From: Candidatus Pacearchaeota archaeon
GTDB taxonomy: Archaea > Nanobdellota > Nanobdellia > UBA10117 > JABICX01
NCBI GenBank assembly: GCA_017608025.1
Contig: JAFCGM010000004.1
Span: 90,744 to 154,743 of the forward strand
DNA length: 64,000 nt
Reading direction: 5' to 3'
Positions 2,942 through 60,154 of this stretch are shown one piece after another (the first letter of the stretch is position 1; each line of letters opens with the position of its first letter). Below the pieces are notes generated by a model that saw only the letters and a list, made by a program, of their open reading frames with translations, made no database searches and was not told where the DNA came from. Both the position numbers and the translations under genes were made by a program.

Positions 2942-3191
2942 ATATGTGTTATCGAGCAAGGCGAAAATAGCACTAGCCTGGGTCCCTTGGCTAAAAGGAC
3001 TGCTATACAAATAGATATAGAATAATAAAACAATAATAATGTTTTCCGCGAGCGCTTTTTCCAAAAGGGCTCTGTGGAGTCCCTTAGCTAGAAAGACTGA
3101 AATAATATGTGTTATCGAGCCGAAGGCGAAGATAGCACCTCTGTGTGTCTCTTCAGAAGAAGGACTGCCATAAAAATAGATATAAAATAAA
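2942..3191 (+). repeat. Intergenic composite repeat between two pilin genes. Two ~90-bp sub-repeats (2942-3040 and 3105-3191) bracket a 60-bp core (3041-3100).
   Basis: Sub-repeats atatgtgttatcgagc...ggcgaa(a/g)atagcac...aaggactgc(t/c)ata(c/a)aaatagatata(g/a)aataa. The core tttccgcgagcgctttttccaaaagggctctgtggagtcccttagctagaaagactg is ~90% identical to 53235-53292. GC content is above that of the flanking DNA. Confidence 0.65.
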
Positions 3192-8687: not shown

Positions 8688-8933
8688 TGAATAATAATAT
8701 ATTATCGAGGAAACTTATTTTTTGATGAAACTTTTTCAAAAGTTTCCGAAGATAGCGCCAGAAGGAACTTAGTTCCGCCTTGGGCTTTAGCCCTAGCCGA
8801 TTTTGCGGCTGAGTGTGTCCCTTGGCTAAAAGGACTTGAAGGAAAGTGTAATGAAAAATAAGTGACCTTTATAACTAAAATTTGGTCGCTGTCGCACAGT
8901 CCGGGCGAAACGGACAGAGGAAAATGTGATGAA
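8675..8933 (+). mobile_element. 224-bp family element (8693-8916) inserted exactly at an overlapping stop/start junction between two pilin genes. It is flanked by a 17-bp direct duplication (ggaggaaaatgtgatgaa at 8675-8692; gaggaaaatgtgatgaa at 8917-8933).
   Basis: Each copy keeps one gene end intact: copy 1 gives ...KM-TGA for the upstream gene; copy 2 supplies GAGG plus the ATG for the downstream gene. The insert has the tttgatgaaactttttcaaaagtttccg, gaagatagcgcc and gtgtcccttggctaaaaggact motifs plus GC-rich hairpins. Confidence 0.6.
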
Positions 8934-15283: not shown

Positions 15284-15358
15284 AGCGGGATGGGGCAGTC
15301 TGGAGTGCCCGTCGGGCTCATAACCCGAAGGTCGAAGGTTCAAATCCTTCTCCCGCTA
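15284..15358 (+). tRNA. tRNA-Met (anticodon CAT), initiator-type.
   Basis: Cloverleaf: acceptor AGCGGGA/TCCCGCT, anticodon stem TCGGG/CCCGA with three G:C pairs, loop CTCATAA, T-arm GAAGG-TTCAAAT-CCTTC. A1:U72 pair, archaeal initiator signature. Confidence 0.85.
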
Positions 15359-15543
15359 CTTACAAGGAGAAATTCAATAAACCTTTTGGGTTGGAAAACA
15401 TCCCTGAAGGTTTTCCGCCAGAAACGAACGTAGTTCGTGCCTATGAAATAGTGCTTTTTTAAAAGGGCTGTTTAGGGTTGGAAGACCTTTTTCAAAGGGA
15501 TTCCGTTTGAATCCTTCTCCCGCTACTTACAAGGAGAAATTCA
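15343..15543 (+). mobile_element. 133-bp repeat element (15377-15509) inserted at the 3' end of tRNAi-Met, flanked by a 34-bp direct duplication of the tRNA 3' end plus downstream sequence (15343-15376 and 15510-15543).
   Basis: Exact direct repeat AATCCTTCTCCCGCTACTTACAAGGAGAAATTCA twice. The internal sequence shares a >50-nt near-identical core (GGTTTTCCGCCAGAAACGAACGTAGTTCGTGCCTATGAAATAGTGCTTTTT) with 35579-35632. Confidence 0.6.
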
Positions 15544-15556
15544 TCAAAAAAATAAA

Positions 15557-16207
15557 ATGAAAACATGCGGTGTTGATGAAGCTGGAAGAGGACCTATTAT
15601 CGGACCAATGGTTCTTGCAGGTGTTTGCGCTTCAGAAAAAAAACTAGAAGAATTAAAAAAGCTTCATATAAAAGATTCTAAATTACTAACTCCAAAACGG
15701 CGGGAAGAACTCTTCAAAAAGATAATTGCAAAATATAAATATGTAATTGTAAAAATATCTCCGCAAGAAATTGATTCTAACAACGCAAATGGAACAAATT
15801 TAAATCGCCTTGAAGCAAAAACTATTGCTCGAATAATTATGGAAATGAAACCTAACAAAGTAATTGTAGATTCTCCAGAACCTGCTGATGAGCAAAAATT
15901 TGGCCGAACAATAAAAGAACTATGTAAAAACTGCAAACCTAAAATTTCAAGTGAACATAAAGCAGATACAAACCACATTATTGTTGGTGCAGCCTCAATT
16001 CTAGCAAAAGTAACTCGCGACAAGGAAATTGAAAAAATAAAAAAAGAAACAAAAATAGATATTGGCTCAGGATACCCTTCAGATGAAATAACAATAAAAG
16101 CATTAAAAGAGCATTTAAGTGAACTTGAACCTTATATAAGAAAATGCTGGGCAACATACAAAAGACTCAAAGGTGAAAAGTTCCAAGCTAATTTAGAAGA
16201 TTTCTAG
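15557..16207 (+). CDS. rnhB: Ribonuclease HII.
   Basis: N-terminal GVDEAGRGPIIGPMV catalytic motif, 216 aa. Confidence 0.9.
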   Translation: MKTCGVDEAGRGPIIGPMVLAGVCASEKKLEELKKLHIKDSKLLTPKRREELFKKIIAKYKYVIVKISPQEIDSNNANGTNLNRLEAKTIARIIMEMKPNKVIVDSPEPADEQKFGRTIKELCKNCKPKISSEHKADTNHIIVGAASILAKVTRDKEIEKIKKETKIDIGSGYPSDEITIKALKEHLSELEPYIRKCWATYKRLKGEKFQANLEDF

Positions 16208-16364
16208 TTTGGGGTTGGAAGACCTTTTCTAAAGGGATTCCTGTGAAAAGTTCCAAGCTAATTTAGGAGATTTCTAATTCAGTGCACAACAATGCAAATG
16301 TTTGTGCGCTAAGCGTGGGTCCCTTCGCTTTAAGGACTTCCAAGCTAATTTAGGAGATTTCTAA
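16177..16364 (+). repeat. Three direct copies of the rnhB 3' end (ttccaagctaatttag[a/g]agatttcta[g/a]) at 16180-16207, 16248-16274 and 16339-16364, separated by two short hairpin elements (16208-16247; 16278-16338).
   Basis: Copy 1 ends in TAG; copies 2 and 3 are identical to each other and end in TAA. Inserts carry the family motifs tttggggttggaagaccttttctaaagggattcc and gtgggtcccttcgctttaaggact. Confidence 0.6.
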
Positions 16365-16756
16365 ACTTTCTCAAGAAGTTTATTAAGATAAGAAACAGTA
16401 ACATCTCGCATAAAGCGGATTATATCTATATTCTCTGGGTTATGCAGACGTATATTTTTCTTATCAACAACATATGTAAAATTAAAAGTATTAGTAATAA
16501 AATCAAAGGTTAAAATATCATGACAAGCAGTAATGCGCGATTCTAACGTCTCATCAGATTTACTCAAAAATAGCTGATAGATTAAACCACTATACGTTGA
16601 GATTTTATTATTTTTATAATCTCTAACAACATCCATAAAAATCTCGGGATCTTTTCTAATTTCAGCAGGCAATCCAAGAACCTCGTCTGGAATTGGAATT
16701 GCTCCAAACCCACATTTAGTTACTTCATAATCCTCAGGATTAAGATATTCAACCAT
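16361..16756 (-). CDS. Hypothetical protein (131 aa).
   Basis: ORF only. Its stop codon overlaps the last rnhB-tail repeat copy. Confidence 0.35.
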   Translation of the reverse strand: MVEYLNPEDYEVTKCGFGAIPIPDEVLGLPAEIRKDPEIFMDVVRDYKNNKISTYSGLIYQLFLSKSDETLESRITACHDILTFDFITNTFNFTYVVDKKNIRLHNPENIDIIRFMRDVTVSYLNKLLEKV

Positions 16757-19085: not shown

Positions 19086-19988
19086 ATGGTTTTAGAGTCA
19101 ATAATCCCAGTAAACATTGCTGAGGAAAGGCCGATTAAAATTCTTCCTACAAGTTTCATATATGCCACAATAGCCTTGTTCATTGCTTATTGGCTTTTCC
19201 CAACAGAAGCTAGCATGACTCTAATTTTTTTCACAGTAATGGCTTGCCTTCCTCTAATGCTTGGCCTAATCGGACTTGAAAAACTAAAAGCAGAAGCAAT
19301 TTTAAAGGAAATAGTTTTTGACTATGTATCTCAACCAAATAAAAAAACATCAAATCCTTTCAAAACCCACAAAAAATTCTTCCTGTTTATGACATACTTA
19401 ACAATTGGACTTGTTCTTGCATTCACTCTTTGGTATATTGTTCTGCCAACAAATATGGTAAATCTTCTTTTCAATTCCCAAATAAACACAATAAACACAA
19501 TAAACAGCAATGTGTCCCATCTAACTGGAAATGCAATAAACATTATATCTTATTTCAGCATAATACTTACAAACAATCTCAAGGTTTTGATTTTCTGTCT
19601 TCTCTTTTCTTTCATTTATGGAGCAGGAGCAATTTTCATTCTTGTTTGGAACGCCAGTGTTGTATCTATTGCAATTGGAAATTCAATTAGAGGTCTTTTA
19701 AGCAGTTACGCAGCAGCAACTGGAGCAAACACTCTTAGTCAGTATTTCTCTGCCTTCTCTCTTGGACTCTTGCGATATATTGTACATGGAATTCCTGAAA
19801 TCGGAGCATATTTTATTGGTGGGCTTGCTGGAGGAATGATTTCAATTGCAATTATAAAACACGAATTTATGAGTCCTAAATTCAAAATAATTTTAATGGA
19901 CGCCCTCCTGCTAATGCTAATTTCTGTCGGGCTTCTAATCCTTGCCGCACTTATAGAAACCTTTATCAGTCCACTAATTCCTATTTAA
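19086..19988 (+). CDS. SpoIIM-like (DUF95 family) polytopic membrane protein, paralogue 1.
   Basis: Multi-TM protein. Conserved core NNLKVLIFCLLFSFIYGAGAIFILVWNASVV is shared with the downstream paralogue. Confidence 0.5.
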   Translation: MVLESIIPVNIAEERPIKILPTSFIYATIALFIAYWLFPTEASMTLIFFTVMACLPLMLGLIGLEKLKAEAILKEIVFDYVSQPNKKTSNPFKTHKKFFLFMTYLTIGLVLAFTLWYIVLPTNMVNLLFNSQINTINTINSNVSHLTGNAINIISYFSIILTNNLKVLIFCLLFSFIYGAGAIFILVWNASVVSIAIGNSIRGLLSSYAAATGANTLSQYFSAFSLGLLRYIVHGIPEIGAYFIGGLAGGMISIAIIKHEFMSPKFKIILMDALLLMLISVGLLILAALIETFISPLIPI

Positions 19989-20331
19989 GTCATTGTTCTT
20001 TTGATGAAATTTTTTCAAAAAGTTTCCGCCAGCGCTTTTTCTAAAAGGGGCTTTTTTCTTTTCCGCAGCCGCTTTTTCTAAAAGGGGCTTTGGGGTTGGA
20101 AGACCTCTAAATTAGTTTTCTTTTTAGGACGGGTTTTTCTTTTTCTAAAAGAAAAAAGCATTTGGGAATGCAAACACTTTTCTAAAGGGTTTGCAGAGGC
20201 GTTCATCAGTCCGCTAATTCCTATTTAAGTCATTGTTCTTTTGATGAAATTTTTTTCCAAAATTTCAATTTTTTGCGAGCTTTGTTCTTGCTCTAAGAAA
20301 GCTTAAATAATACTCTTACTACAATTAATTT
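19965..20331 (+). repeat. Composite repeat element between the SpoIIM paralogues, flanked by a 52-bp direct duplication of the paralogue-1 3' end (19965-20016 and 20205-20258). It contains tandem ttccgc(c/a)agc(g/c)gctttttctaaaaggggct units and the terminal gggaatgcaaacacttttctaaagggtttgc hairpin.
   Basis: Direct repeats read directly from the sequence. The terminal hairpin GCAAAC...GTTTGC abuts the second target copy, as at the Hef and radA loci. Confidence 0.6.
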
Positions 20332-35557: not shown

Positions 35558-35674
35558 GTGTGGAGGTTCTTTTCTAAAGGTTTTCCGCCAGAAACGAACG
35601 TAGTTCGTGCCTATGAAATAGTGCTTTTTCTAAAAGAGCTGTTTGAGGTGAAGACCTTTTCCAAAGGGATTCAA
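35558..35674 (+). repeat. Repeat-family element covering the 5' leader of the next gene.
   Basis: Contains the ~53-nt core shared with 15403-15455 and an end gaggtgaagaccttttccaaagggattcaa. The ORF-track start at 35558 lies inside it. Confidence 0.6.
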
Positions 35675-36409
35675 ATGAAGAAAAAGATTGCAATTGCCCT
35701 AAGTGCTGAAATCCTTGATGAAGTGGATTTTATTTCAAAAAAAGAAAGTCTATCAAGAAGCCAGGAAATTGAAAAACTCATCTTAGAAGGACTGAAAAAA
35801 ACTGAAGTGAAAACTGCGGTATTGCTAATACACAAAAATAAAAAAGAAGTTTTATTCAAAAACAGCAACGAACTGCTAAAGAAGCAATATGAATTTCTTA
35901 AAAAAAACCGAATTCAAAATATAATATTCGTTTCTGAATTCAAAGAAAGTGAAAAGCGAAAAATAGAGCAAATTTTTCAAGAAATTAACTTAAAAATAAT
36001 ATCTGACAAATCAAATGGCACTGCTCAAGCTCTGAAAAAAGCAAATAAACACATCTTTTCAGATTTCATACTAATTAACGCAGACACGTACAATGAATTT
36101 GACTTAAAAAAAATGATTTCATTCCACAAAGAAACAAAAACAACAGCAACTCTTGGCCTTATAAACAGTGATTCTCCAGAAAAATATGGCTCAGTAATTC
36201 TAGATGGAACAAAAATAATAAAATTCAGTGAAAAAGCAAAACCTCTTTCAAATATAATCAGCGCAGGAATTTATATATTAAAGCCCAAAATCTTTGCAAG
36301 CATCAAAAATAAAAAATCTCTTGAAAAAGAAATCTTTCCAGAACTCGCTGAATCGCGAGAAATTCGCGGATTTTTTACTTTCGGCCAATACCAACATTTC
36401 GGAAACTAA
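35675..36409 (+). CDS. Sugar-phosphate nucleotidyltransferase (HddC/RmlA-fold) with an atypical N-terminus: an RHH-like segment replaces the canonical GGxGTRL loop.
   Basis: GTAQAL, LINADTY, YGSVILD and ISAGIYIL motifs of the NTP_transferase family. Start at ATG 35675 (MKKKIAIALSAEILDEVD...). Confidence 0.5.
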   Translation: MKKKIAIALSAEILDEVDFISKKESLSRSQEIEKLILEGLKKTEVKTAVLLIHKNKKEVLFKNSNELLKKQYEFLKKNRIQNIIFVSEFKESEKRKIEQIFQEINLKIISDKSNGTAQALKKANKHIFSDFILINADTYNEFDLKKMISFHKETKTTATLGLINSDSPEKYGSVILDGTKIIKFSEKAKPLSNIISAGIYILKPKIFASIKNKKSLEKEIFPELAESREIRGFFTFGQYQHFGN

Positions 36410-38015: not shown

Positions 38016-39023
38016 TTGTTCAAAATGCTTAAAGTTCCAATAAATGAAATAATAGAAAAAATTTCAGAAGCCAGCGGCCTTTCTGACGCAGAAATAAAAA
38101 AGAAAATACAAGAAAAAATGAATTCCTTAGAAGGCCTTGTTTCAGAAGAAGGAGCAGCACACATAATTGCTCATGAACTTGGAATAGAACTTTTCAAAAC
38201 AAGCTATGAAAAGGAAGTTAAAATAAAAGAGCTTCCAATTGGATTAAGAAAATTCGAAATAGTTGGTGTAATAACTAATGTTTTTAATGTGAAGACTTTC
38301 AAAAAGCAAAATAAAACTGGAAAAGTTGCATCATTTATTCTAGAAGATGAAACAGCAAGAATAAGAGTAACTCTTTGGAATGAAGCTACAGATCTTGTTG
38401 AAACAGGAAAAATAGCAGAAGGAAAAACAATCAAAATAAAAAATGGACTAGTAAAAATAAACAAATACCAAGGACGTGAAAACAAGGAAATTCACACAAC
38501 ATCTGGAACGAAAATTGAGTTTGATGTTGAAGAAAAAATAGAAATTCATGACAGAACAAAAGCTCCTGCATATGAATTTAAAAATATAAATCAAACAAAA
38601 GCAGGAGATTTAGTTAAAATAAGAGGAACAGTTGTTTCTGTTTTCATGCCCAAACTTTATTTTGCTTGCCCTGAGTGTAACAAAAAAATAGAAGTTGAAA
38701 ATGAAAAAGGAATTTGCAAAGACCATGGTGATGTTAAGCCAAAGAAAACAGCTCTTTTCTCTTTTGTTGTTGATGATGGAACTGACAACATTCGTTGCGT
38801 GTCATTCCGTGAAACAGCAGAATCAATATTGAACATGTCACCAGAAGATATTGAAGTTGCTCAGGAAGAAAATATTAATCAAAGAATATTAGGAGATGAA
38901 GTGGAAATTGTCGGAAGAGTTAATGAAAACAAGCAGTCTGGAAAAAAAGAAATACTCCTCTCAGGAGTTAACAAAAATTTAAATCCAGTTCAAATTGCAA
39001 AAAGCATATTAGGTGATAATTAA
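38016..39023 (+). CDS. rpa: Replication protein A (ssDNA-binding) with an OB fold and a C4 zinc ribbon.
   Basis: RPA-like N-terminus (...[16 protein letters not shown]), OB domain, [21 protein letters not shown] zinc finger. Confidence 0.65.
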
Positions 39024-40099
39024 TGGCAAAAAAAACAAAACCTGAAAAAAAAGAGGAAAAAATTTCAGAAGAAATTGCAGAAAACAATCCAGAAGAAAAA
39101 GCAAAACAAAAAAAAGAATCTGATGAAATAAAAGAAAAAGAAAAAGTAGCTACAATGAAAATCGAGGACTTACCTGGAGTTGGTCCGGCAACTGTTGAAA
39201 AGCTAAAGGAAGCAGGTTATTTAGACTTAATGAGTCTAGCAGCAGCCCCTTCTCGTGAACTTGCAGACATAGCAGGAATGACTGAATCTGGAGCAGGAAA
39301 AGTTATTGTTGCTGCAAGAAAAGCTCTTAAAATTGATTTCATGACAGGAGATGAATTATCTTCAAAAAGAAAAAGTATTGAAAGAATATCAACTGGAAGC
39401 CAGGAATTTAACAAGCTTATTGGTGGGGGAATTGAAACACAAGGTCTGTTTGAATGCTTTGGTGAATATGGTTCTGGAAAATCCCAACTAGCAATGCAGT
39501 TGGCAGTTATGGCTCAGCTTCCAAAAGAAAACGGAGGTCTCAACAGTGATGTAATTTACATTGACACAGAAAACACATTCCGGCCAGAAAGAATAAAGCA
39601 AATAGCAGAAGCGCAAGGCCTTGACTCTAAAAAAGTATTGAAAAGAATAATGGTAGCTCGGGCATTCACATCAGATCATCAAATGCTGCTTGCAGAAAAA
39701 ATTGACAGTATGATTCGTGAAAAGAATATACACGTAAGGCTTGTAATAGTAGATTCCTTAACTTCATTATTCAGAACAGAATATTCTGGAAGAGGAACTC
39801 TCGCCACAAGACAGCAAAAACTTAATCGACATCTTCACACTCTGCAGAGAATCGCAGACATACACAACATAGCAGTTTACGTAACAAACCAAGTAATGGC
39901 TCGGCCAGACATTTTCTTTGGAAACCCAACAGCAGCAATAGGAGGTCATGTTCTAGGGCATGCCTGCCAGTTCAGAGTTTACCTTAGAAAAAGCAAAGGA
40001 GACAAAAGAATCGCCCGCTTAATAGACTCTCCATATTTACCAGAAGGCGAAGCAATCTTCAGAGTAACTGAAAAAGGAATTGAAGATATTAAGTCCTAA
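39023..40099 (+). CDS. radA: DNA repair and recombination protein RadA, with a Lys/Glu-rich N-terminal extension or an alternative start at 39155.
   Basis: HhH ([13 protein letters not shown]), Walker [10 protein letters not shown], RecA core. 358 aa. Confidence 0.9.
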
Positions 40100-40440
40100 C
40101 TTGTGTTAAGCAATCACTTTTTTGATGAAACTTTTTCTAAAATTTCAATTTTTTGCAAGCTTTCTTTCTAAGAAAGCTTTGGGAATGAAAACACTTTTTA
40201 AAGGGTTTTCTGTAACTGAAAAAGGAATTGAAGATGTTAAGTCTTAATTACAGGTATCGTATTTTGTTTACCTGTTGAAAGTGCCAGCTGATTTTGCAGC
40301 TGGAAGATGTTAAGTCTTAATTACAGGTATCGTATTTTGTTTACCTGTTGAAAGTGCCAGCTGATTTTGCAGCTGGAAGATGCTAAATCCTAACTTATAT
40401 TAAGCAATCCATTTTTTTAATGAAACTTTTTCTAAAAGAG
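40066..40440 (+). repeat. Nested/tandem array downstream of radA: four direct copies of the radA 3' end (40066-40099, 40214-40247, 40303-40320, 40376-40393). They are separated by a ~95-bp family element and by two copies of a 55-bp two-hairpin module (40248-40302 and 40321-40375; period 73 bp).
   Basis: Copies ...gaagat(a/g)ttaagtc(c/t)taa. Module ttaCAGGTAtcgtattttgttTACCTGttgaaagtgcCAGCTGattttgCAGCTG with two perfect stems. Confidence 0.65.
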
Positions 40441-44286: not shown

Positions 44287-44543
44287 GATGCTCACCCTTA
44301 CATTCCATTTTAATTTACCTTGATTTTCCGTGAACACTTTTCTTAAAAGGGTTCTTGTTTTTTTGATGAAACTTTTTCTAAAAGTTTCCGTGAACACTTT
44401 TCTTAAAAGGGTTCTTGTTTTTTTGATGAAACTTTTTCTAAAAGTTTCCGTGAACACTTTTGCAGGCATCGTATTTTATTCGCCTGCTCAGAGTGCCAGC
44501 TGATCTCTCAGCTGTGGTGCTCACCCTTACATTCCATTTTAAT
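44287..44543 (+). repeat. Repeat locus upstream of tRNA-Cys. 25-bp direct repeats (44290-44314 and 44519-44543) flank two and a fraction tandem 60-bp units (44325-44384, 44385-44444) plus one 52-bp two-hairpin module (44462-44513).
   Basis: Unit tttccgtgaacacttttcttaaaagggttcttgtttttttgatgaaactttttctaaaag. Module GCAGGCatcgtattttattcGCCTGCtcagagtgcCAGCTGatctctCAGCTG. Confidence 0.65.
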
Positions 44544-52835: not shown

Positions 52836-52993
52836 TTATCAACAAGAACAATAACTCGTTTTCCAATTAATTTTTTCGGAAGTGTGATTTTTCCAGATGA
52901 AGCATTGTTTTTAATAACATATCTTGTTAAAATTTGGTTAAAGTTTATTGGCTTCAACTTAACACTTCCCCGAACTTTCGCATTAATTCCCAT
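52823..52993 (-). CDS. 56-aa AbrB/MazE/SpoVT-like swapped-hairpin DNA-binding protein. Not in the supplied ORF track because it is under 60 aa.
   Basis: Translation MGINAKVRGSVKLKPINFNQILTRYVIKNNASSGKITLPKKLIGKRVIVLVDKEQE. The GKITLPKKL..GKRV motif resembles the AbrB swapped hairpin. ATG at 52991-52993 (rc), TAA at 52823-52825 (rc). Confidence 0.35.
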   Translation of the reverse strand: MGINAKVRGSVKLKPINFNQILTRYVIKNNASSGKITLPKKLIGKRVIVLVDKEQE

Positions 52994-53359
52994 TAAATTA
53001 ATTCCTCATCTTTCTAATTTGTTTCTTTGGGCAACTTGCACTTTCTTTTCTAAAGAAAGGGCAGAGCATTAATTCCCATTAAATTAATTCCTCGTCTCTC
53101 TAATTTGTTTCTTTGGGCAACTTGCACTTTCTTTTCTAAAGAAAGGGCAGAGCATAACTTTTATAGTCTAATTAAAGACTACAATATTTAAAAACCTTAT
53201 GTGCATCCTTGCTCTACACGATCATATTCGTCATTTTCCGCAAGCGCTTTTTCCAAAAGGGCTCCATGAGTCCCTTGGCTAGAAGGACTATAACCAGAAT
53301 TAAACCGTTGTGTGAAGCTCTGCTTTACACGACCAGCCTGTGTCCCTTGGCTAGAAGGA
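52979..53359 (+). repeat. Two tandem 87-bp units (52979-53065 and 53066-53152), each beginning with a copy of the AbrB-like gene start. These are followed by a ~120-bp GC-richer family element (53235-53359) carrying two gtcccttggctagaaggacta hairpin motifs.
   Basis: Tandem units are near-identical. The 53235-53292 segment is ~90% identical to 3041-3100. Confidence 0.6.
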
Positions 53360-55201
53360 CTATTTAATCTTCTTTAAAATAGCGTGATTTCCCTTCCAGT
53401 TAATTGCTTCTTTAAGAACATCCTTAAGCGTGGTTGCAGGAATAATTTTTATTTTGTTTTTCAAATTAGAACTTAAAATAATATCTTTTTCATTTGCAGC
53501 GGGAACAATAACTTTCTTCATTCCTGCCTCAATAGCAGCCTCAACTTTTTGAGTTACACCACCAACAGGAAGAACATCTCCTCTAACAGACAAACTTCCA
53601 GTCATTGCTACTTCCTGATTTATTGGCAAGTTCTTTATTGCAGAAATAATGCATGTTGCAACAGATATGCTCGCACTATCACCTTCAACACCTTCATATG
53701 TTTGGAGAAATTGAACATAAACATCATATTTCTTCAAATCTTCATTAAACCATTTCTTAACAATTGCAGAAACATTTGTAATTGCTTCTTTTGCAATTTT
53801 TCCAAGTTGGCCTGTAGCAACAATTTTCCTGTCTTTTTTTGATTCAGATGGAACTACTTCTCCATCAATTGGCAAAACAATTCCTGAAAAATTGCCATTG
53901 CTTCCAATAACAGCAAGACCATTAACTCGCCCAACAAACTCTCCTTTTGACTTTATAACATTGTAAGCTTTCTTGTCATTAATAACTCTATCAGCAAGCT
54001 GCTGCTCCAAACCTCTAGAAAGCTTTCTTGCATCAATAACATCTTTCTCTGTAACAACTTTATGATCTCGTTCATTTGCTAAATCTCCTGCTGCTCTTAC
54101 AAGCCCTCCCAAATCTCTCAATCTTAAAGTTAGTTTTTTCTTTTTTCCAGACATTCTTCTTGCAACAGAAATAACTTCTTCAACTGCTTTTTTAGTGAAA
54201 TGCGGAATCTTGCCATCCTTAACAACTTCTTGTGCAACAAACCTTACCAGTTTGTCTCGGTTTTCTTTGTTATCTTCCATATAATCATTCATATAAATTT
54301 CATAACCATATCCCTTAAGCCGCGACCTTAAAGCAGGATGTATGTTTTTAACAGTTTCAAGATTTCCTGCTGCAATTAAAACAAAATCACAAGGAACTTG
54401 TTTAGTTTTAACTAATGCTCCTGCGCTTCTCTCAGACTGGCCTGTAATTGAAAATTTCTTTTCCTGCATTGCAGTCAAAAGCTCTTGTTGAGACTTTGGC
54501 TCAAGTGTTGAAACTTCATCAATAAACAAAACTCCGCCATTTGCTTTATGAATCATTCCTGCTTCAACTCTCAAATGCGCTGGAGTTGCAAGCCCGCCAG
54601 ACTGAAAAGGGTCGTGTCTTACATCTCCAAGCAAAGCACCAGCTTTTGCTCCAGTAGCATCAACAAAAGGTGCTTTTTTTGCTCCAGAATTATTAACAAT
54701 AAGCTTTGGCTCAACAATTTTTTTATTTTTTTGCGGCATGCTAAGTGAAAGCATAATTATTCCAAAAAAAATAAACCCTCCAATTAAAGAAGCAGCAGCC
54801 ATCACATCTCCGTACTGGCTCCGAATAAACCAAGGAATCATCAATACAATAAATCCCAAAACCAAATAAAGCAGTTTCCTACTCTTCATAAAGCTCTGTG
54901 CTTTAATCTTTGCAGAGTTAACAAAAGAACTTCCCTGACCTGCTTTTACCTCACTAATTATTGGCTCATTTTCATCTTCTTCATTTGGAAAAACAAGTAT
55001 ATCTCTCAATAAGCTTTTTGGCAAAAGCTCTGAAAGCGCCTGCCCAATCATTGATTTTCCCGTCCCTGGAGTTCCAATAAGAAAAACATGACGTCTTTGC
55101 TTCGCTGCCTTCTTAATTATGTTTACAGCTTCATCCTGCCCAATAATCTGGTCAACAATTTTGCTCGGGACTTTAATTTCTTTAGTGGTTTTGAATTTCA
55201 T
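53360..55201 (-). CDS. lonB: Archaeal membrane-bound Lon protease (LonB).
   Basis: AAA+ Walker A GTPGTGKSM with two TM helices inserted in the ATPase domain. C-terminal Lon protease domain with catalytic Ser (VGGVTQK...). 613 aa. Confidence 0.9.
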   Translation of the reverse strand: MKFKTTKEIKVPSKIVDQIIGQDEAVNIIKKAAKQRRHVFLIGTPGTGKSMIGQALSELLPKSLLRDILVFPNEEDENEPIISEVKAGQGSSFVNSAKIKAQSFMKSRKLLYLVLGFIVLMIPWFIRSQYGDVMAAASLIGGFIFFGIIMLSLSMPQKNKKIVEPKLIVNNSGAKKAPFVDATGAKAGALLGDVRHDPFQSGGLATPAHLRVEAGMIHKANGGVLFIDEVSTLEPKSQQELLTAMQEKKFSITGQSERSAGALVKTKQVPCDFVLIAAGNLETVKNIHPALRSRLKGYGYEIYMNDYMEDNKENRDKLVRFVAQEVVKDGKIPHFTKKAVEEVISVARRMSGKKKKLTLRLRDLGGLVRAAGDLANERDHKVVTEKDVIDARKLSRGLEQQLADRVINDKKAYNVIKSKGEFVGRVNGLAVIGSNGNFSGIVLPIDGEVVPSESKKDRKIVATGQLGKIAKEAITNVSAIVKKWFNEDLKKYDVYVQFLQTYEGVEGDSASISVATCIISAIKNLPINQEVAMTGSLSVRGDVLPVGGVTQKVEAAIEAGMKKVIVPAANEKDIILSSNLKNKIKIIPATTLKDVLKEAINWKGNHAILKKIK

Positions 55202-55581: not shown

Positions 55582-55770
55582 CTAAAATATAACGTATGCT
55601 TCTTAAATTATATTTCTTTTAGTGCAGGTTTTCTTTGTAAAAGAAAAAGTGCAAAGGTCTCTAAAATATAACGTATGCTTCTTAAATTATATTTTTTTCT
55701 TTGTAAAAGAAAAAGTGCAAAGGTCTCTAAAATATAACGTATGCTTCTTAAATTATATTTCTTTTAATAC
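55582..55770 (+). repeat. Three tandem direct repeats (79, 66 and a partial ~45 bp) upstream of the TraB-family gene.
   Basis: Unit ctaaaatataacgtatgcttcttaaattatattt(c)tttt...ctttgtaaaagaaaaagtgcaaaggtct. Units begin at 55582, 55661 and 55727. Confidence 0.7.
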
Positions 55771-55857: not shown

Positions 55858-56514
55858 ATGTCTCTCAAAATACTTGGCTCATCGCACATATCAGGAAAAT
55901 TCGCAAGCAAGGTTTATGACACAATAATCGTTGAAGAACCAGAAATTGTTGCAGTTGAATTAGACTTAGCTCGCGCCCGCGCTTTATTTTCAAAACAAAA
56001 ACAAAAAATTTCATTTAAAACAATAAGGAATTTCGGCCTTTTTGGGTTCTTTTTTGCACTTATTGGATCTAAAATACAGAAATATTTAGGTAAAAAAGTT
56101 GGTTTTGAACCTGGAATTGACATGAAAAAGGCAATTATTGCAGCAAAAAAAGTAAATTCAAAAATAATTCTCATTGACCAGCCAATGAGTAAAACACTTC
56201 AAAAACTTTCCAAAATTAGTTTTAAAGAAAAAGTAAAACTTTTCTTTTATTTAATTTGGCCATTTCAAAAAAAAGCTAAAATGTCTTTTGATTTGTCTTC
56301 TGTGCCAAATGAAAAAACAATTAATAAAATAATAAAAGATTTTAAAGAAAAATTTCCTGGAATTTATTCGGTGCTTATTAAAGAAAGAAATGATTTTATT
56401 GCAAAAAACTTAATTGATTTAAAAAGAAAATTTGAAAATTTAAACATTGTAGCTGTTTTGGGAGCAGGACATGTTTCTGAAGTAAAAAAATTAATTAAAA
56501 ATTTTGAAGAATAA
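55858..56514 (+). CDS. TraB/PrgY-family protein (Tiki/TraB fold).
   Basis: N-terminus ILGSSHISGKFASKV, GHVSEV near the C-terminus. 218 aa. Confidence 0.6.
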   Translation: MSLKILGSSHISGKFASKVYDTIIVEEPEIVAVELDLARARALFSKQKQKISFKTIRNFGLFGFFFALIGSKIQKYLGKKVGFEPGIDMKKAIIAAKKVNSKIILIDQPMSKTLQKLSKISFKEKVKLFFYLIWPFQKKAKMSFDLSSVPNEKTINKIIKDFKEKFPGIYSVLIKERNDFIAKNLIDLKRKFENLNIVAVLGAGHVSEVKKLIKNFEE

Positions 56515-56526
56515 TTAAAAATATTT

Positions 56527-56818
56527 TTAAAAAAATTATTTTAATATAATATTTTTTTAAATATAAATTAAAACAAAAAAAAGCATTTTTTAACTGAAAT
56601 ATGCAAAAAAAATAGCAAAAATTAAATAAAAAATTAAATAAAAATTATTTTTTATTAAATTAAAACAAAAAATAAGTAAATTTAATGAAAAATCATAAAA
56701 AATACATAAAAATCATGAAAAAAAGATTTAAAAAAATTATTTTAATATAATATTTTTTTAAATATAAATTAAAGCAAAAAAAGCAAGAGATAAGTTTTTA
56801 TGTTCTGAAATATACAAA
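56527..56818 (+). repeat. Extremely AT-rich (>90% AT) intergenic region containing a ~200-bp tandem duplication. The 59-bp near-identical cores are at 56527-56585 and 56727-56785, with weaker similarity continuing about 30 bp beyond each.
   Basis: tttaaaaaaattattttaatataatatttttttaaatataaattaaa(a/g)caaaaaa(a)agca occurs twice, 200 bp apart. Confidence 0.7.
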
Positions 56819-57673: not shown

Positions 57674-59872
57674 ATGCAATTCTTAAAGCAAAAGCTAAAT
57701 TTAAGAGTGTATCAGCAAACAATATTAAACACAGCTCTTAGCAAAAATACTCTTTGCGTAATCCCTACTGGTCTTGGAAAAACCTACATAGCAATAGCTC
57801 TAATTGGCTTAAAATTAAAAGAAAAAAAAGCAATTTTTCTTGCTCCAACTAAGCCTCTTGTAACGCAGCACTTTAACACCTTTAAGCAGTTTTTTGATTC
57901 TGAACCCGAAGAAATAATTGAAGTTTCTGGAACAGTTCCTTCAAAAAAAAGAAAAGAAATGTATAAAAAAGCAAAAATAATTTTTGCAACCCCACAAACA
58001 ATTGAAAATGACATAATTACAAAAAGAATACTTCCTGAGGAATTTTCAATAGCAATATTTGATGAAGCTCATCGCGCAGTAGGAGACTATGCATATGTTT
58101 TCCTTGCAAAGCAATTCAAAGAAAGTAGAATTCTAGCATTAACAGCTTCTCCCGGTCATGAAATTGAAAAAATAAATGAAATAAAAAATAACCTGTTTAT
58201 TCAAGAAATTGAAAAAAGAACACAAAAAGACAAAGATGTTAAAGAATATGTAAAGGAAATTAAATTTCAGTACAAAAAAGTTGAGCTTCCAAAACTTATG
58301 AAAGCAATACAAAAACACCTTAAAATGGCAATGAAAGAATATCTTGTCCAACTAAAGGAATTAGATATTATTGACTCAACCAGCTTGTCAAAATTCAGCA
58401 GAAAAAACCTTCTAAATCTTCAAACTAAACTTCGTACGCAAATAAGCACAGGAGATTTTGAAATAATGCGCGCCCTATCAATAACAGCAAGACTAATAAA
58501 AATAAATTATGCCCTTCATCTTCTTGAATCTGAATCGCTGAATGCCTTGAATGATTATTTAAAGTCAATTTGGAAAGATTCAAAAACAACAAAAACAAAA
58601 GCAGTAAAAGCTCTTGTCCAAAATTTCCATATTCGTGCAGCATACAGGCTTTCTCAAGAATGTAAAGAAAAGAAAATAGAGCACCCAAAAATGCTTGAAC
58701 TGAAAAAAACAATTAAACAGGAATTGAAAAAAAATCCCAACTCAAAAATACTAATTTTCACTGAATACCGAAGCAATGTTGAGCAAATTGTACAAGAATT
58801 ATCTGAATTTAAAATTCATCAGTTTGTTGGCCAATCCTCTTTAAAGAAAAAAGGAATGTCGCAAAAAGAGCAGATTAAAGCAATAGAAGATTTAAAAACA
58901 GGAAAAGTTAATGTTCTTGTCTGCACTTCTGTAGCTGAAGAAGGCCTTGACATTCCAAAAGTGGATTTAATTGTTCTTTATTCTCCAATTCCTTCTGCTA
59001 TTAGGTCAATACAAAGAAAAGGAAGAACTGGCAGACAGGAAGTTGGAAATCTTGTAGTCCTTTTAACAAAAGACACAAAAGATGAAACTTATCATTGGAT
59101 TTCTGTAAATCGGGAAAGGAAAATGAATCAAGTGCTTACAAACATGTCACAGTCAAAAAGCAAGCTAATAACTCTTGACTCCTTTCAAAACAAAAGCAAA
59201 GAAAAGCAAACTGTTGAAAATAGGGAAGAAATAAAAGTATATTGTGATTGCCGCGAATCAGGAATATTAAAATATCTCATAGAGCACGGCGTTACAGTTC
59301 TTCCAAAAAAACTAGAAGTTGCAGACTTCATTCTCTCTGATGATATTGCAGTTGAAAGAAAGGAAGTAGAAGATTTTACTTCTTCTTTAATTGACCAACG
59401 CCTTTTTAACCAAGCAACTGAACTAAAACGAAACTTCGAAAAACCGCTTTTTATTATTGAAGGAGACTTATCAGAAATTTTCTTTTCAAGAAACATAAAT
59501 CCTGATGCTCTCCGCTCAGCAATGATCTCTTTGCTTGTTGATTATCAAATACCTTTTTTATTCAGTTCAAACAAGCAGGAAACTGCAAAATACCTTTACC
59601 TCATAGCTAAAAGAGAACAAATTGAAAAGAAAAAATTAATTTCCTTACGCGGCTCCAAAAGATTAACTTCAATTCCAGAAATGCAGCAATTCTTTATTGA
59701 AGGTTTGCCTTTAATTGGTCCTGCTCTTACAAAAAAGCTCCTAAAGCACTTCAAAACACCAAAAGCTTTGTTAAATGCCTCAAAAGAAGAGCTTCAAAAT
59801 GTTAAAAACCTCGGCCCAAAAAAAGCAGAAAAAATCAAAATGATTCTTGAAGAAATATATGATGAAGAATGA
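57674..59872 (+). CDS. hef: Hef (helicase-associated endonuclease for fork-structured DNA; XPF/FANCM homologue).
   Basis: SF2 helicase motifs (GLGKT, DEAH), XPF nuclease ERK motif (AVERKEVEDF), C-terminal HhH2. 732 aa. Confidence 0.85.
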   Translation: MQFLKQKLNLRVYQQTILNTALSKNTLCVIPTGLGKTYIAIALIGLKLKEKKAIFLAPTKPLVTQHFNTFKQFFDSEPEEIIEVSGTVPSKKRKEMYKKAKIIFATPQTIENDIITKRILPEEFSIAIFDEAHRAVGDYAYVFLAKQFKESRILALTASPGHEIEKINEIKNNLFIQEIEKRTQKDKDVKEYVKEIKFQYKKVELPKLMKAIQKHLKMAMKEYLVQLKELDIIDSTSLSKFSRKNLLNLQTKLRTQISTGDFEIMRALSITARLIKINYALHLLESESLNALNDYLKSIWKDSKTTKTKAVKALVQNFHIRAAYRLSQECKEKKIEHPKMLELKKTIKQELKKNPNSKILIFTEYRSNVEQIVQELSEFKIHQFVGQSSLKKKGMSQKEQIKAIEDLKTGKVNVLVCTSVAEEGLDIPKVDLIVLYSPIPSAIRSIQRKGRTGRQEVGNLVVLLTKDTKDETYHWISVNRERKMNQVLTNMSQSKSKLITLDSFQNKSKEKQTVENREEIKVYCDCRESGILKYLIEHGVTVLPKKLEVADFILSDDIAVERKEVEDFTSSLIDQRLFNQATELKRNFEKPLFIIEGDLSEIFFSRNINPDALRSAMISLLVDYQIPFLFSSNKQETAKYLYLIAKREQIEKKKLISLRGSKRLTSIPEMQQFFIEGLPLIGPALTKKLLKHFKTPKALLNASKEELQNVKNLGPKKAEKIKMILEEIYDEE

Positions 59873-59955
59873 TTTGGGGATGCAAACACTTTTTCAAAGG
59901 GTTTGCTGCTGAAAAAATCAAAATGATTCTTGAAGAAGAATTTAGTGAGGAGTAA
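59825..59955 (+). mobile_element. 35-bp hairpin element (59873-59907, tttggggatGCAAACactttttcaaaggGTTTGCtgct) inserted at the Hef 3' end with a ~48-bp duplication of the gene tail (59825-59872 and 59908-59955).
   Basis: Copy 1 encodes ...AEKIKMILEEIYDEE*. Copy 2 encodes ...AEKIKMILEEEFSEE*. The first 30 bp are identical and the ends have diverged. Confidence 0.55.
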
Positions 59956-60154
59956 TTAATTGTATGCAAATTTGTTACACTGCTTTATTAAAAGGACTTT
60001 AACAATAAAATATATTCAAAGAATAATAATAAATTTTATTAATTATATAAAAGGGTTCTTATTGGAAAATAGTCAAAAAATAGACTATAATAAGCCTTAA
60101 TTTTTTATGATATTTTCAGTAAAAAACAAAATACTCAAAAGAACTGCTTTTTTC

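What the first reader, a model, noticed from the sequence alone, without database searches (positions are those of the whole stretch)
59825..59955. Hef C-terminus rewritten by a 35-bp hairpin insertion with ~48-bp tail duplication: two alternative C-terminal peptides
The 35-bp element tttggggatGCAAACactttttcaaaggGTTTGCtgct sits between two copies of the last ~48 bp of hef. The in-gene copy ends ...EEIYDEE-TGA. The downstream ghost copy ends ...EEEFSEE-TAA. The first 30 bp are identical and the last 18 bp are ~65% identical. So either the insertion captured the ancestral tail and the gene copy then diverged, or the element carries its own variant tail. This shows the elements can alter protein C-termini (here the HhH2 tail of a fork-repair nuclease). 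The duplication is longer than the element.
Basis: seen in the sequence. Interest (0 to 1): 0.55.

Follow-up and report, generated by a model that had tools for sequence, protein, structure and literature searches.

The report
Mobile hairpin duplicates Hef gene tail
A 35-base hairpin element, one of a family found across many archaeal phyla, has inserted right after the stop codon of a DNA-repair gene and duplicated the gene's last ~50 bases, so the gene now ends in a changed five-residue tail while an unused copy of the older tail sits just downstream.

Summary
The window comes from a Woesearchaeota-like (DPANN) archaeon. Its hef gene (57674-59872) ends ...EEIYDEE-TGA. A 35-nt hairpin element (E, 59873-59907) follows, then a second copy of the last 48-50 nt of hef ending ...EEEFSEE-TAA.

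The ghost copy resembles the ancestral tail: the closest ortholog ends DEEFSEN and the wider family ends EE(F/Y)K.

The case is not isolated. E or a sister element sits between duplicated 3' ends of RNase HII, RadA, a SpoIIM-like gene and tRNA-Met in the same window. E occurs in about 90 distinct places in public archaeal contigs (Woese-, Pace-, Iain-, Alti-archaeota, Thermoplasmata). There it lies either inside tRNA introns (mostly antisense) or between locus-specific direct repeats of 16-100 bp.

A perfect 30-bp duplication straddling a stop/start overlap (L083) and an empty RadA site in a relative (L089) show these are true, long, variable target-site duplications.

Comparison of RNase HII loci shows the copies undergo gene conversion. 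That explains the identical first 30 nt and the diverged last 18 nt at hef.

The integrating enzyme is unknown. Only the in-gene tail is translated: the ghost is out of frame. The family looks undescribed, a REP/MITE-like element with unusually long duplications.

The parts
57674..59872 (+). hef gene (732 aa: helicase + ERCC4 nuclease + HhH2), ending ...KIKMILEEIYDEE-TGA
   Evidence: ORF. Pfam domains. 100% match to P0001 and Woesearchaeota orthologs.
59825..59872 (+). Upstream (in-gene) copy of the duplicated target. It encodes residues 718-732 plus the stop. The next 2 nt (TT) may also belong to the duplication.
   Evidence: (family D1).
59873..59907 (+). Element E, a 35-nt miniature hairpin element: TTTGGGGAT + stem-loop (59882-59906) + T
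   Evidence: Covariance-model hit of 52 bits, E = 5.6e-15. Hairpin energy. A second near-identical copy lies at 20161-20194.
59908..59957 (+). Downstream ghost copy of the hef tail (AEKIKMILEEEFSEE-TAA + TT). It is out of frame with hef and ancestral-like.
   Evidence: The tail of the closest ortholog is DEEFSEN.
16173..16366 (+). RNase HII tail present three times: T1 16173-16207 (in-gene), E 16208-16242, T2 16243-16277, a different hairpin insert 16278-16335, T3 16336-16364
   Evidence: (D9).
15338..15548 (+). tRNA-Met (15284-15359): its 3' end plus trailer is duplicated (15338-15381 and 15505-15548) around a 123-nt composite insert that ends in E (15471-15504)
   Evidence: (D11).
19955..20266 (+). 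SpoIIM-like gene tail plus 3' flank duplicated (19955-20026 and 20195-20266) around a multi-module insert that ends in E (20161-20194)
   Evidence: (D7).
40064..40393 (+). RadA tail present four times: T1 40064-40099 (in-gene, EDIKS*), E 40178-40210, T2 40212-40247 (EDVKS*), B-type double hairpin 40248-40302, T3 40303-40320, B-type 40321-40375, T4 40376-40393 (EDAKS*)
   Evidence: (D6, D12).
44289..44543 (+). A 26-nt sequence (44289-44314 and 44518-44543), read on the + strand as a coding tail ...AHPYIPF*, is duplicated around E-like tandem units (44325-44457) and a B-type element (44458-44517). No supporting + strand ORF was confirmed.
   Evidence: (D2, D15).

Best explanation
The 35-nt hairpin is one copy of a family of miniature, non-autonomous mobile elements (here called E). 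Its consensus is TTTGGGG-WT, then a 10-bp stem with a conserved A.G mismatch, then the loop-proximal core CCTTTT-YY-AAAGG.

E integrated immediately after the hef stop codon. The integration duplicated about 48-50 bp of target, giving X-T-E-T-Y. The upstream copy stayed joined to the gene body and is the translated tail. The downstream copy became an untranslated ghost that still carries the older tail (EFSEE-like).

Afterwards the two copies exchanged sequence by gene conversion over their first ~30 nt. The last 18 nt drifted apart, mostly in the gene copy. This gave Hef a new terminal pentapeptide (IYDEE) that lies just beyond the Pfam HHH_5 match (residues 677-726).

Shown here:
- family membership of the hairpin;
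- locus-specific duplications at many sites and in many phyla;
- a true target-site duplication with both flanks native;
- an empty site in a relative;
- gene conversion between the copies;
- the ancestral-like state of the ghost.

Inferred (about 40% for this sub-step): integration proceeds at two nicks 16-100 bp apart. The element's 3' ends, or a copy of the element, then prime fill-in across the single-stranded target. Few-nucleotide microhomology guides the junctions: TT at the left junction of hef and RNase HII, and the element tail GTTAG against tRNA T-loop GTTCG in the Alti/Iainarchaeota subfamily. The enzyme acts in trans and is not identified.
For: 1. Same architecture at five or more loci in the window: RNase HII, RadA, the SpoIIM-like gene, tRNA-Met and hef.
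2. E is a family. There are 6 strong and 7 weaker covariance-model hits in the window and 110 hits in 87 fetched loci. Exact-pattern scans found 38 genome loci and 45 metagenome loci, almost all archaeal, and none in viral contigs.
3. The hairpin is kept by compensatory changes: pair 11-33 is CG 13 / GC 8 / AU 1, and pair 14-30 is CG 19 / AU 3 / UA 3. No shuffle out of 500 reached the observed covariation score.
4. About 30 of about 66 distinct non-intron instances have a direct repeat of the upstream sequence starting 0-8 nt after the hairpin, with alignment score >= 32. Reverse-complement controls never exceeded 27.
5. L083 has a perfect 30-bp duplication across an ATGA stop/start overlap. 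The right copy finishes one gene and the left copy starts the next, so both flanks are native.
6. Empty site: RadA in L089/L090 is followed by a 35-nt spacer, against 374 nt of inserts and tail copies in the window.
7. The ghost is ancestral-like. Of 9 hef differences, 5 agree with the L001 ortholog on the ghost side and 1 on the gene side. None of 119 homologs ends IYDEE. The same direction is seen in RadA: EDA in orthologs and in ghost T4, V in T2/T3, I in the gene; and L088 has GIEDA in the ghost against GLEDA in the gene.
8. Gene conversion: the window and L085 share E at the same RNase HII position. Each genome's two copies share 4 lineage-specific substitutions. The L085 ghost keeps LDEF, whereas both genes have LEDF.
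Against: - No transposase, reverse transcriptase, integrase or Cas1 was found. Only 10 window ORFs were scanned, and all were housekeeping genes.
- E's outer termini are not inverted repeats, and duplication length is not fixed (16-100 bp), unlike ordinary DDE transposition.
- E copies in tRNA introns show no flanking duplication. Either there are two modes of insertion, or selection has erased the duplications there.
- No strain close enough exists in the databases to show an empty hef site. The nearest Hef is 76% identical, and an assembly gap follows it.
- The excess of derived changes in the gene copy (about 8 to 1-2 over four loci) is only suggestive. It could also reflect error-prone synthesis at insertion rather than later drift.
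Confidence: 0.8

Rival explanations
1. There is no mobile element. A resident terminator-like hairpin provoked replication slippage or unequal crossing-over, and that tandemly duplicated the tail.
For: The window holds several perfect tandem duplications of 60-86-nt hairpin-containing units: 40230-40375, 44325-44444, 52980-53151 and 55629-55760. Arrays (T-E)n-T exist in L005, L006 and L068.
Against: A tandem duplication of [tail+hairpin] would give two hairpins and would end in a hairpin. The observed order is T-E-T-Y with one E. The same E sequence lies between unrelated, locus-specific repeats at many loci and in several phyla. L083 and the empty RadA site show insertion. Slippage probably does expand arrays after the first insertion.
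Confidence: 0.07
2. This is the scar of a site-specific integrative element. Such elements carry their own copy of the target gene's 3' end, as islands that target tRNA genes do. The in-gene tail would then be the foreign copy and the ghost the original. Alternatively, a [tail+E] circle from another strain integrated by homologous recombination.
For: The in-gene copy is the derived one and the ghost is ancestral-like. tRNA 3' ends are among the duplicated targets. A crossover in the identical 30 nt would give exactly the pattern of an identical 5' part and a foreign 3' part.
Against: The insert is only 35 nt and no integrase was found. The duplicated segment differs at every locus, so a dedicated attP for each target would be needed. 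A donor allele divergent enough to differ at 8 of 18 tail positions should also differ at synonymous sites in the adjacent 27 nt, and these are identical. In L083 both flanks are native. Spread between strains by recombination of excised T-E circles is not excluded as a secondary route.
Confidence: 0.08
3. This is an RNA-level device. The element plus the first tail is an archaeal bulge-helix-bulge intron (E does sit in tRNA introns elsewhere), so splicing would join the gene body to the ghost tail. Or the two copies are the variable and template repeats of a diversity-generating retroelement.
For: E lies in canonical-position introns of at least 23 tRNA genes. Diversity-generating retroelements are common in DPANN archaea (background knowledge), and they pair a 3' gene repeat with a nearby hairpin.
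Against: The region 59800-59990 folds no better than shuffles (z = -1.1) and shows no bulge-helix-bulge motif. Most intron copies are antisense to the tRNA (20 of 23), so E is tolerated in introns rather than forming the splice signal. The differences between the copies are not confined to adenines of the ghost. The repeat is 48 nt, not about 100-150 nt. tRNA ends and gene starts are duplicated in the same way.
Confidence: 0.03

Closest known systems
IS1634 / IS1549 (IS1634 family of insertion sequences)
   Same: Insertion produces long direct repeats of the target whose length varies from copy to copy. Lengths of 8-514 bp are reported, and no mechanism had been proposed (PMC2266710).
   Different: Those are 1.5-2 kb bacterial elements with terminal inverted repeats and their own DDE transposase. 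E is 34-43 nt, archaeal, has no terminal inverted repeats at its outer ends, and has no known partner.
REP / BIME elements of bacteria (mobilised by RAYT transposases)
   Same: They are extragenic palindromes of about 35 nt. They sit at gene 3' ends, occur in many copies, and often form tandem or mosaic clusters with other small modules. They may have roles in termination or mRNA stability (background knowledge).
   Different: REPs are not known to create target duplications and are lineage-specific. E is nearly identical across archaeal phyla, lacks the REP 5' GTAG signature, and is flanked by 16-100-bp duplications.
Classical prokaryotic MITEs
   Same: They are small, non-coding and multi-copy, and they depend on an enzyme acting in trans. 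Very high MITE densities have been reported for Ca. Altiarchaeum and for a Woesearchaea genome (PMC11602168).
   Different: MITEs are defined by terminal inverted repeats and short, fixed duplications of 2-10 bp. E fails both criteria.
Integrative elements that duplicate tRNA or gene 3' ends (att sites); casposon and CRISPR Cas1 integration
   Same: These leave direct repeats of a gene's 3' end on both sides of the insert, and tRNA genes are favoured targets. In CRISPR adaptation an insert of about 35 bp goes in with duplication of about 30-37 bp. Repeated insertions build arrays (background knowledge).
   Different: There the repeat length is fixed by the enzyme or by a pre-existing attP copy. 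Here it varies widely and is always made from the local sequence. No integrase or Cas1 was seen.
Transposon-derived introns (introner elements) and the 'tRNA intron transposition' proposed for Thermoproteales
   Same: A small repeated element is found inside introns of many different tRNA genes.
   Different: Here the element is mostly antisense within introns that carry their own splice-motif flanks. It appears to colonise introns as safe sites rather than to create them. This point was only partly examined.

Membership tests
Classical MITE | Terminal inverted repeats at the two ends of the element | tested here: not met
   The palindrome is internal (columns 10-34 of alignment A1). The 5' end TTTGGGGWT has no inverted counterpart at the 3' end.
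Classical MITE | Short target-site duplication of fixed length (2-10 bp) | tested here: not met
   Duplications range from 16 to about 100 bp and vary between copies.
Classical MITE | Small, non-coding, multi-copy, with filled and empty sites | tested here: met
   There are 13 covariance-model hits in the window and 110 in the loci. RadA has an empty site in L089 and a filled one in the window.
REP/BIME | Extragenic palindrome of about 35 nt in clusters at gene ends | tested here: met
   Tandem E arrays lie between convergent genes in L024, L036, L041 and L081.
REP/BIME | Associated RAYT (IS200/IS605-like) transposase, and no target duplication | tested here: not met
   Long duplications are present. 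No such gene was found among the 10 ORFs scanned. The whole genome could not be examined.
IS1634-type long-repeat transposition | Long, variable-length direct repeats on insertion | tested here: met
.
IS1634-type long-repeat transposition | DDE transposase of the IS1634 family acting on terminal inverted repeats | not testable with these tools
   No partner gene lies in the window. Only fragments of the source genome and its relatives are available.
Diversity-generating retroelement (variable/template repeat pair) | Mismatches confined to adenines of the template copy, and a reverse transcriptase nearby | tested here: not met
   Differences include G/A, T/A and A/G in both directions. The neighbouring ORFs are a peptidase, a signal-peptide peptidase and the PolD small subunit.
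Archaeal bulge-helix-bulge intron | Splice motif formed by the exon-intron junctions | tested here: not met
   The fold of 59800-59990 has z = -1.1 and no such motif. No Rfam match was found.
Integrase-mediated att duplication | Integrase gene, or a large element, between the repeats; repeat supplied by the element | tested here: not met
   The insert is 35 nt. The repeats are locus-specific and of variable length.

The most novel reading that the evidence does not exclude
E is an undescribed, cross-phylum archaeal mobile hairpin. It integrates by a target-primed or microhomology-primed copying mechanism that makes 16-100-bp duplications. These long duplications would let it land on stop codons, on gene overlaps and in tRNA genes without killing them. 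It also colonises tRNA introns. The ghost copies would then form a dated fossil record of earlier gene ends, and recombination between the copies could switch protein C-termini back and forth.
Probability: 0.35. Interest if true: 0.8.

Novelty: new variant of a known kind. Interest (0 to 1): 0.62.

Why it matters
For Hef itself the effect is small. Five residues beyond the Pfam HHH_5 match are changed and the gene is intact.

The wider point is that a 34-nt hairpin, almost identical from Thermoplasmata to DPANN archaea, spreads with duplications long enough to preserve whatever it lands on: coding tails, overlapping stop/start signals and tRNA ends.

- That would explain how streamlined genomes with spacers of 0-60 nt tolerate dense repeat invasion.
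- It gives a simple way to recover ancestral gene ends from ghost copies.
- It creates direct repeats that can recombine, by gene conversion or precise excision, and so change protein C-termini.
- It links small mobile elements to tRNA introns in archaea.
- The enzyme responsible is unknown and would be worth finding. Long variable duplications have no accepted mechanism even for the bacterial IS1634 family.

Tried and rejected
- Rfam at gathering thresholds over the whole window, and at E <= 10 around the site, found only the two tRNAs and noise.
- Bacterial-type terminator scan at the site: none.
- RNA fold of the whole tail-hairpin-tail region, looking for an intron-like structure: not better than shuffles.
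- Viral contig scan for E: no hit.
- Full-text search for six E-derived strings found no paper. Searches for archaeal MITEs or tRNA-intron transposition found nothing describing this element.
- Exact look-up of the window's Hef protein, to find sister strains: not on record. No empty hef site could therefore be shown.
- The idea that the ghost always lies on the hairpin's 3' side was rejected by L083, where the right-hand copy is the functional one.
- The idea that E sits in sense orientation downstream of genes as a terminator holds in the window: all 13 hits are on the + strand, and 6 of 8 loci lie after + genes. A crude ORF-context count over other genomes does not support it: 22 against 17. 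It is left as a hypothesis.
- A C-box/D-box reading of ATGATGA...CTGA around the element was rejected. Rfam C/D-box scores are far below threshold, and the motif is absent at the other loci.
- E-proximal hypermutation as the sole cause of the diverged 18 nt was not needed once gene conversion was shown. It is kept only as an alternative.
Full report
**Observation**

The sequence is as described. hef (57674-59872, 732 aa) ends ...GCAGAAAAAATCAAAATGATTCTTGAAGAAATATATGATGAAGAATGA. Then come 35 nt, TTTGGGGATGCAAACACTTTTTCAAAGGGTTTGCT. Then GCTGAAAAAATCAAAATGATTCTTGAAGAAGAATTTAGTGAGGAGTAA.

The repeat finder reports a 50-nt direct repeat at 82% identity and spacing 83. The exact core is 27 nt, whereas the longest local exact repeat in 30 Markov simulations of the window was 15 nt. 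One of the first 30 positions differs and 8 of the last 18 do.

The 35-mer folds into a stable hairpin (DNA -8.4 kcal/mol, z = -5.1). Pfam confirms a full Hef: helicase, ERCC4 and HhH at residues 677-726. The duplicated segment encodes residues 718-732. The residues that differ (728-732) lie just past the Pfam HHH_5 match.

The ghost is 83 nt downstream, so it is out of frame. Read-through of the TGA would meet another stop after 17 codons and would not give the ghost peptide.

**Organism, and which tail is older**

The best Hef homologs are from Woesearchaeota and other DPANN archaea. The nearest (P0002, 76% identical, contig L001) ends ...KIKMILDEEFSEN. The wider family ends (I/L)(F/L)(D/E)EE(F/Y)K.... 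None of 119 homologs ends IYDEE.

At the DNA level, 5 of the 9 differences between the two copies agree with L001 on the ghost side, 1 agrees on the gene side, and 3 agree with neither. The ghost therefore preserves the older tail and the translated tail is the derived one.

**The same thing elsewhere in the window**

A whole-window repeat scan and direct reading show the same architecture at other genes.

- RNase HII: tail, stop, E (16208-16242), tail again, a different hairpin, and the tail a third time.
- tRNA-Met: the 3' end plus trailer, a 123-nt composite ending in E, and the 3' end plus trailer again.
- A SpoIIM-like gene: a 72-nt duplication around a multi-module insert ending in E.
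- RadA: four tail copies separated by E and by a second ('B-type') double hairpin.

The window contains 17 exact direct repeats of >= 20 nt within 300 nt, against none in simulations. The genome is otherwise compact, and its large intergenic gaps are the ones filled with these modules. The genes affected are ordinary housekeeping genes.

**The element family**

An exact pattern derived from the window copies found 38 stretches in one-genome-per-species archaeal and bacterial contigs and 45 in metagenome contigs. It found none in viral contigs.

The hosts are Woese-, Pace-, Iain- and Alti-archaeota, Thermoplasmata/Thermoplasmatota and one Methanobacteriota MAG. Of the two contigs labelled bacterial, one is a weak partial match. 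The other has the same E-flanking sequence as an archaeal contig over the ~170 nt compared.

An alignment of 36 distinct copies shows the following:

- an invariant TTTGGGG-type leader;
- a 10-bp stem with a conserved A.G mismatch;
- a conserved loop-proximal core;
- two stem positions that change on both sides while keeping pairing, with no shuffle out of 500 reaching the observed covariation.

A covariance model built from the alignment finds 13 copies in the window at E < 0.01, all on the + strand. It finds 110 copies in the 87 fetched loci. Rfam has no such family. No paper in the searchable library contains the sequence.

**Two kinds of location**

ARAGORN places at least 23 distinct copies inside canonical-position introns of tRNA genes (Met, Glu, Arg, Ser, Thr, Leu, Val). 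Twenty are antisense to the tRNA and three are sense. These intron copies show no flanking duplication. The intron ends that pair with the anticodon loop are specific to each tRNA, so E appears to sit inside pre-existing introns.

Among the roughly 66 other distinct copies, about 30 are followed, 0-8 nt after the hairpin, by a copy of sequence lying 0-223 nt upstream of the element. Alignment scores are 32-180, while the reverse-complement control never exceeded 27.

The duplicated sequences are always local. They include tRNA 3' ends (sense), tRNA 5' ends (antisense), protein-coding tails (L044, L050) and intergenic DNA. Lengths run from 16 to about 100 bp. Recent, perfect examples are 28, 28, 30 and 39 bp.

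**These are true target-site duplications**

In L083 a perfect 30-bp repeat flanks E. The repeat contains the ATGA overlap between the stop of a CBS-domain gene and the start of the next gene. The right-hand copy completes the first gene and the left-hand copy starts the second. Both flanks are therefore native, and the structure is X-T-E-T-Y.

In a relative (L089/L090, RadA 79% identical), RadA is followed by a 35-nt spacer and the same downstream peptidase gene. That is an empty site, compared with 374 nt in the window. Another relative (L088) has its own, different set of modules between two RadA tails.

The RNase HII tail carries E in the window and in L085, a B-type element in L087, and nothing in L086. 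Arrays of the form (T-E)n-T occur (L005, L006/L060, L051/L068, against one unit in L023). That is what unequal recombination between the duplicated copies would produce.

**Why the first 30 nt are identical and the last 18 are not**

The RNase HII comparison is informative. The window and L085 (83% identical protein) have E at the same nucleotide.

- Both genes end LEDF.
- The L085 ghost ends LDEF, as do both copies in the more distant L087 and its protein P0124.

So the ghost was made before the LDEF-to-LEDF change, which itself predates the split of the two lineages. Yet within each genome the two copies share four lineage-specific substitutions in their first 25 nt. The copies have therefore been homogenised by gene conversion in the centre and 5' part, while the 3' end escaped. 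In the window lineage the conversion extended further.

The hef pattern fits the same history: 27-30 identical nt followed by 8 differences in 18 nt (p of about 0.002 for such clustering). It indicates an old duplication, a recently converted 5' part, and independent drift at the end.

In RadA the rightmost ghost has EDA as in orthologs, the middle ghosts have EDV, and the gene has EDI. In L088 the ghost has the consensus GIEDA and the gene has GLEDA. Over four loci the derived states fall mostly in the gene copy. This could be drift in an unconstrained tail, or errors made when the copy was synthesised. I cannot separate the two.

**How it most likely works**

Shown:
- E is a repeated element that arrives at a site;
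- the target is duplicated over a long and variable distance;
- genes at the site stay intact because each keeps one copy;
- the copies later recombine.

Inferred: the enzyme acts in trans, since nothing is encoded in 35 nt and none was seen among the neighbouring genes.

The variable length argues against a fixed-stagger transposase or a ruler-type Cas1 integrase. The junctions often show a few shared nucleotides. At the left junction of hef and RNase HII there is TT. In the Alti/Iainarchaeota subfamily the element's 3' tail GGYGTTAG lies against the tRNA T-loop GGTTCGA. Modules are concatenated end to end without target between them.

I therefore favour two nicks at variable distance with priming from the element's ends, or a copy-in by template switching. 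I give this about 40%. A DDE enzyme of the IS1634 kind gets about 25%, and the remainder is unknown.

A terminator role for sense-oriented E would explain several things: the T-runs on the sense strand, the antisense bias inside tRNA introns, and the antisense copy inside the L083 operon. A crude context count in other genomes did not confirm it.

**Comparison with known systems**

Long variable direct repeats are documented for the bacterial IS1634/IS1549 elements, with no accepted mechanism (PMC2266710). REP/BIME elements resemble E in size, palindromy, location and clustering, but they make no duplications. MITEs are defined by terminal inverted repeats and 2-10-bp duplications (PMC11602168), and E fails both. 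The same paper reports the highest archaeal MITE densities in Ca. Altiarchaeum and a Woesearchaea genome, which is consistent with what is seen here. Integrase att sites, casposon or CRISPR integration, diversity-generating retroelements and archaeal introns were each considered and fail at least one defining feature (see the membership table).

**Verdict**

The hairpin did lead to a rewritten Hef C-terminus. However, the duplicated tail is a target-site duplication and not cargo. Only one tail is expressed. The change to the protein is minor.

The more interesting result is the element family itself: near-identical across archaeal phyla, resident in tRNA introns, and integrating with duplications of 16-100 bp. 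It appears undescribed in the sources I could search. I rate it a new variant of a known kind (REP/MITE-like mobile hairpins), interest 0.62, with the enzyme and mechanism still open.

Noticed in passing
window 39023-40393: RadA has four copies of its tail. The residue before the final KS runs A (rightmost ghost, as in orthologs), then V (two middle ghosts), then I (gene). This looks like a chronological record of tail states. All window copies also carry a 2-residue extension (KS) that most orthologs lack.
   Followed up: partly
hef 59870-59872, RNase HII 16205-16207, and loci L044, L050, L087, L088: In 6 of 8 duplicated coding tails the gene copy ends in TGA or TAG while the ghost ends in TAA. 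Window-wide stop usage is TAA 34, TGA 15, TAG 7, which gives p of about 0.04. The cause is unknown.
   Followed up: partly
window, all E hits (15384, 15471, 16208, 19013, 20089, 20161, 35642, 40178, 44332-44422, 59873): All 13 covariance-model hits with E < 0.01 lie on the + strand, at 8 independent loci. This could reflect the direction of replication or of transcription.
   Followed up: partly
L085 about 400-765: In a relative, tRNA-Met is interrupted at the anticodon loop by about 370 nt that contain a small ORF (MKKISKREGLMLYWCEGDKYTCPGKYK...). The window's tRNA-Met has no intron. This may be an intron-borne gene.
   Followed up: no
window 40248-40302, 40321-40375, 44458-44517; L087 3654-3718; L088 1800-1970: A second ('B-type') family of double-hairpin elements (...ACAGGTatcgtattttgtttACCTGT...CCAGCTGattttGCAGCTG) is also followed directly by a copy of the upstream gene tail. 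The long-duplication behaviour is therefore not specific to one element sequence.
   Followed up: partly
window 2979-3003, 3076-3100, 8820-8845, 53267-53291, 53339-53363: Another dispersed hairpin repeat (GTCCCTTGGCTAGAAGGAC) often lies next to TTTCCGCNAGCGCTTTTTCCAAAAGGGC modules. A 30-nt repeat tgtgttatcgagc..ggcgaa.atagcac occurs at 2946 and 3107.
   Followed up: no
window 52980-53151, 55629-55760, 44325-44444, 56487-56782: Perfect or near-perfect tandem duplications of 86-, 66- and 60-nt hairpin-containing units, and a set of very AT-rich ~95-nt repeats, lie in intergenic DNA. They indicate frequent recent local duplication.
   Followed up: no
window 15400-15504 and 35575-35673: A composite of about 100 nt made of several modules ending in E is shared by two loci. 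One copy lies after tRNA-Met. The other lies immediately upstream of the ATG at 35675, without a detectable duplication.
   Followed up: no
L044 and L050 (Woesearchaeota metagenome contigs): Two orthologous small genes (...ITENGMEALARKRI* and ...ITERGMEVLGKHEI*) each carry E plus a ghost tail at the same place. Within each genome the two copies are far more alike than the orthologs are to each other. This again suggests concerted evolution or recurrent insertion at the same site.
   Followed up: partly
L038 (labelled Planctomycetales MAG) compared with L025 (uncultured archaeon): The two loci have identical sequence in the ~170 nt compared around E and the same order of four tRNA genes (Phe, Lys, Lys, Met) with the same spacing. 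The bacterial label is therefore probably a binning error.
   Followed up: no
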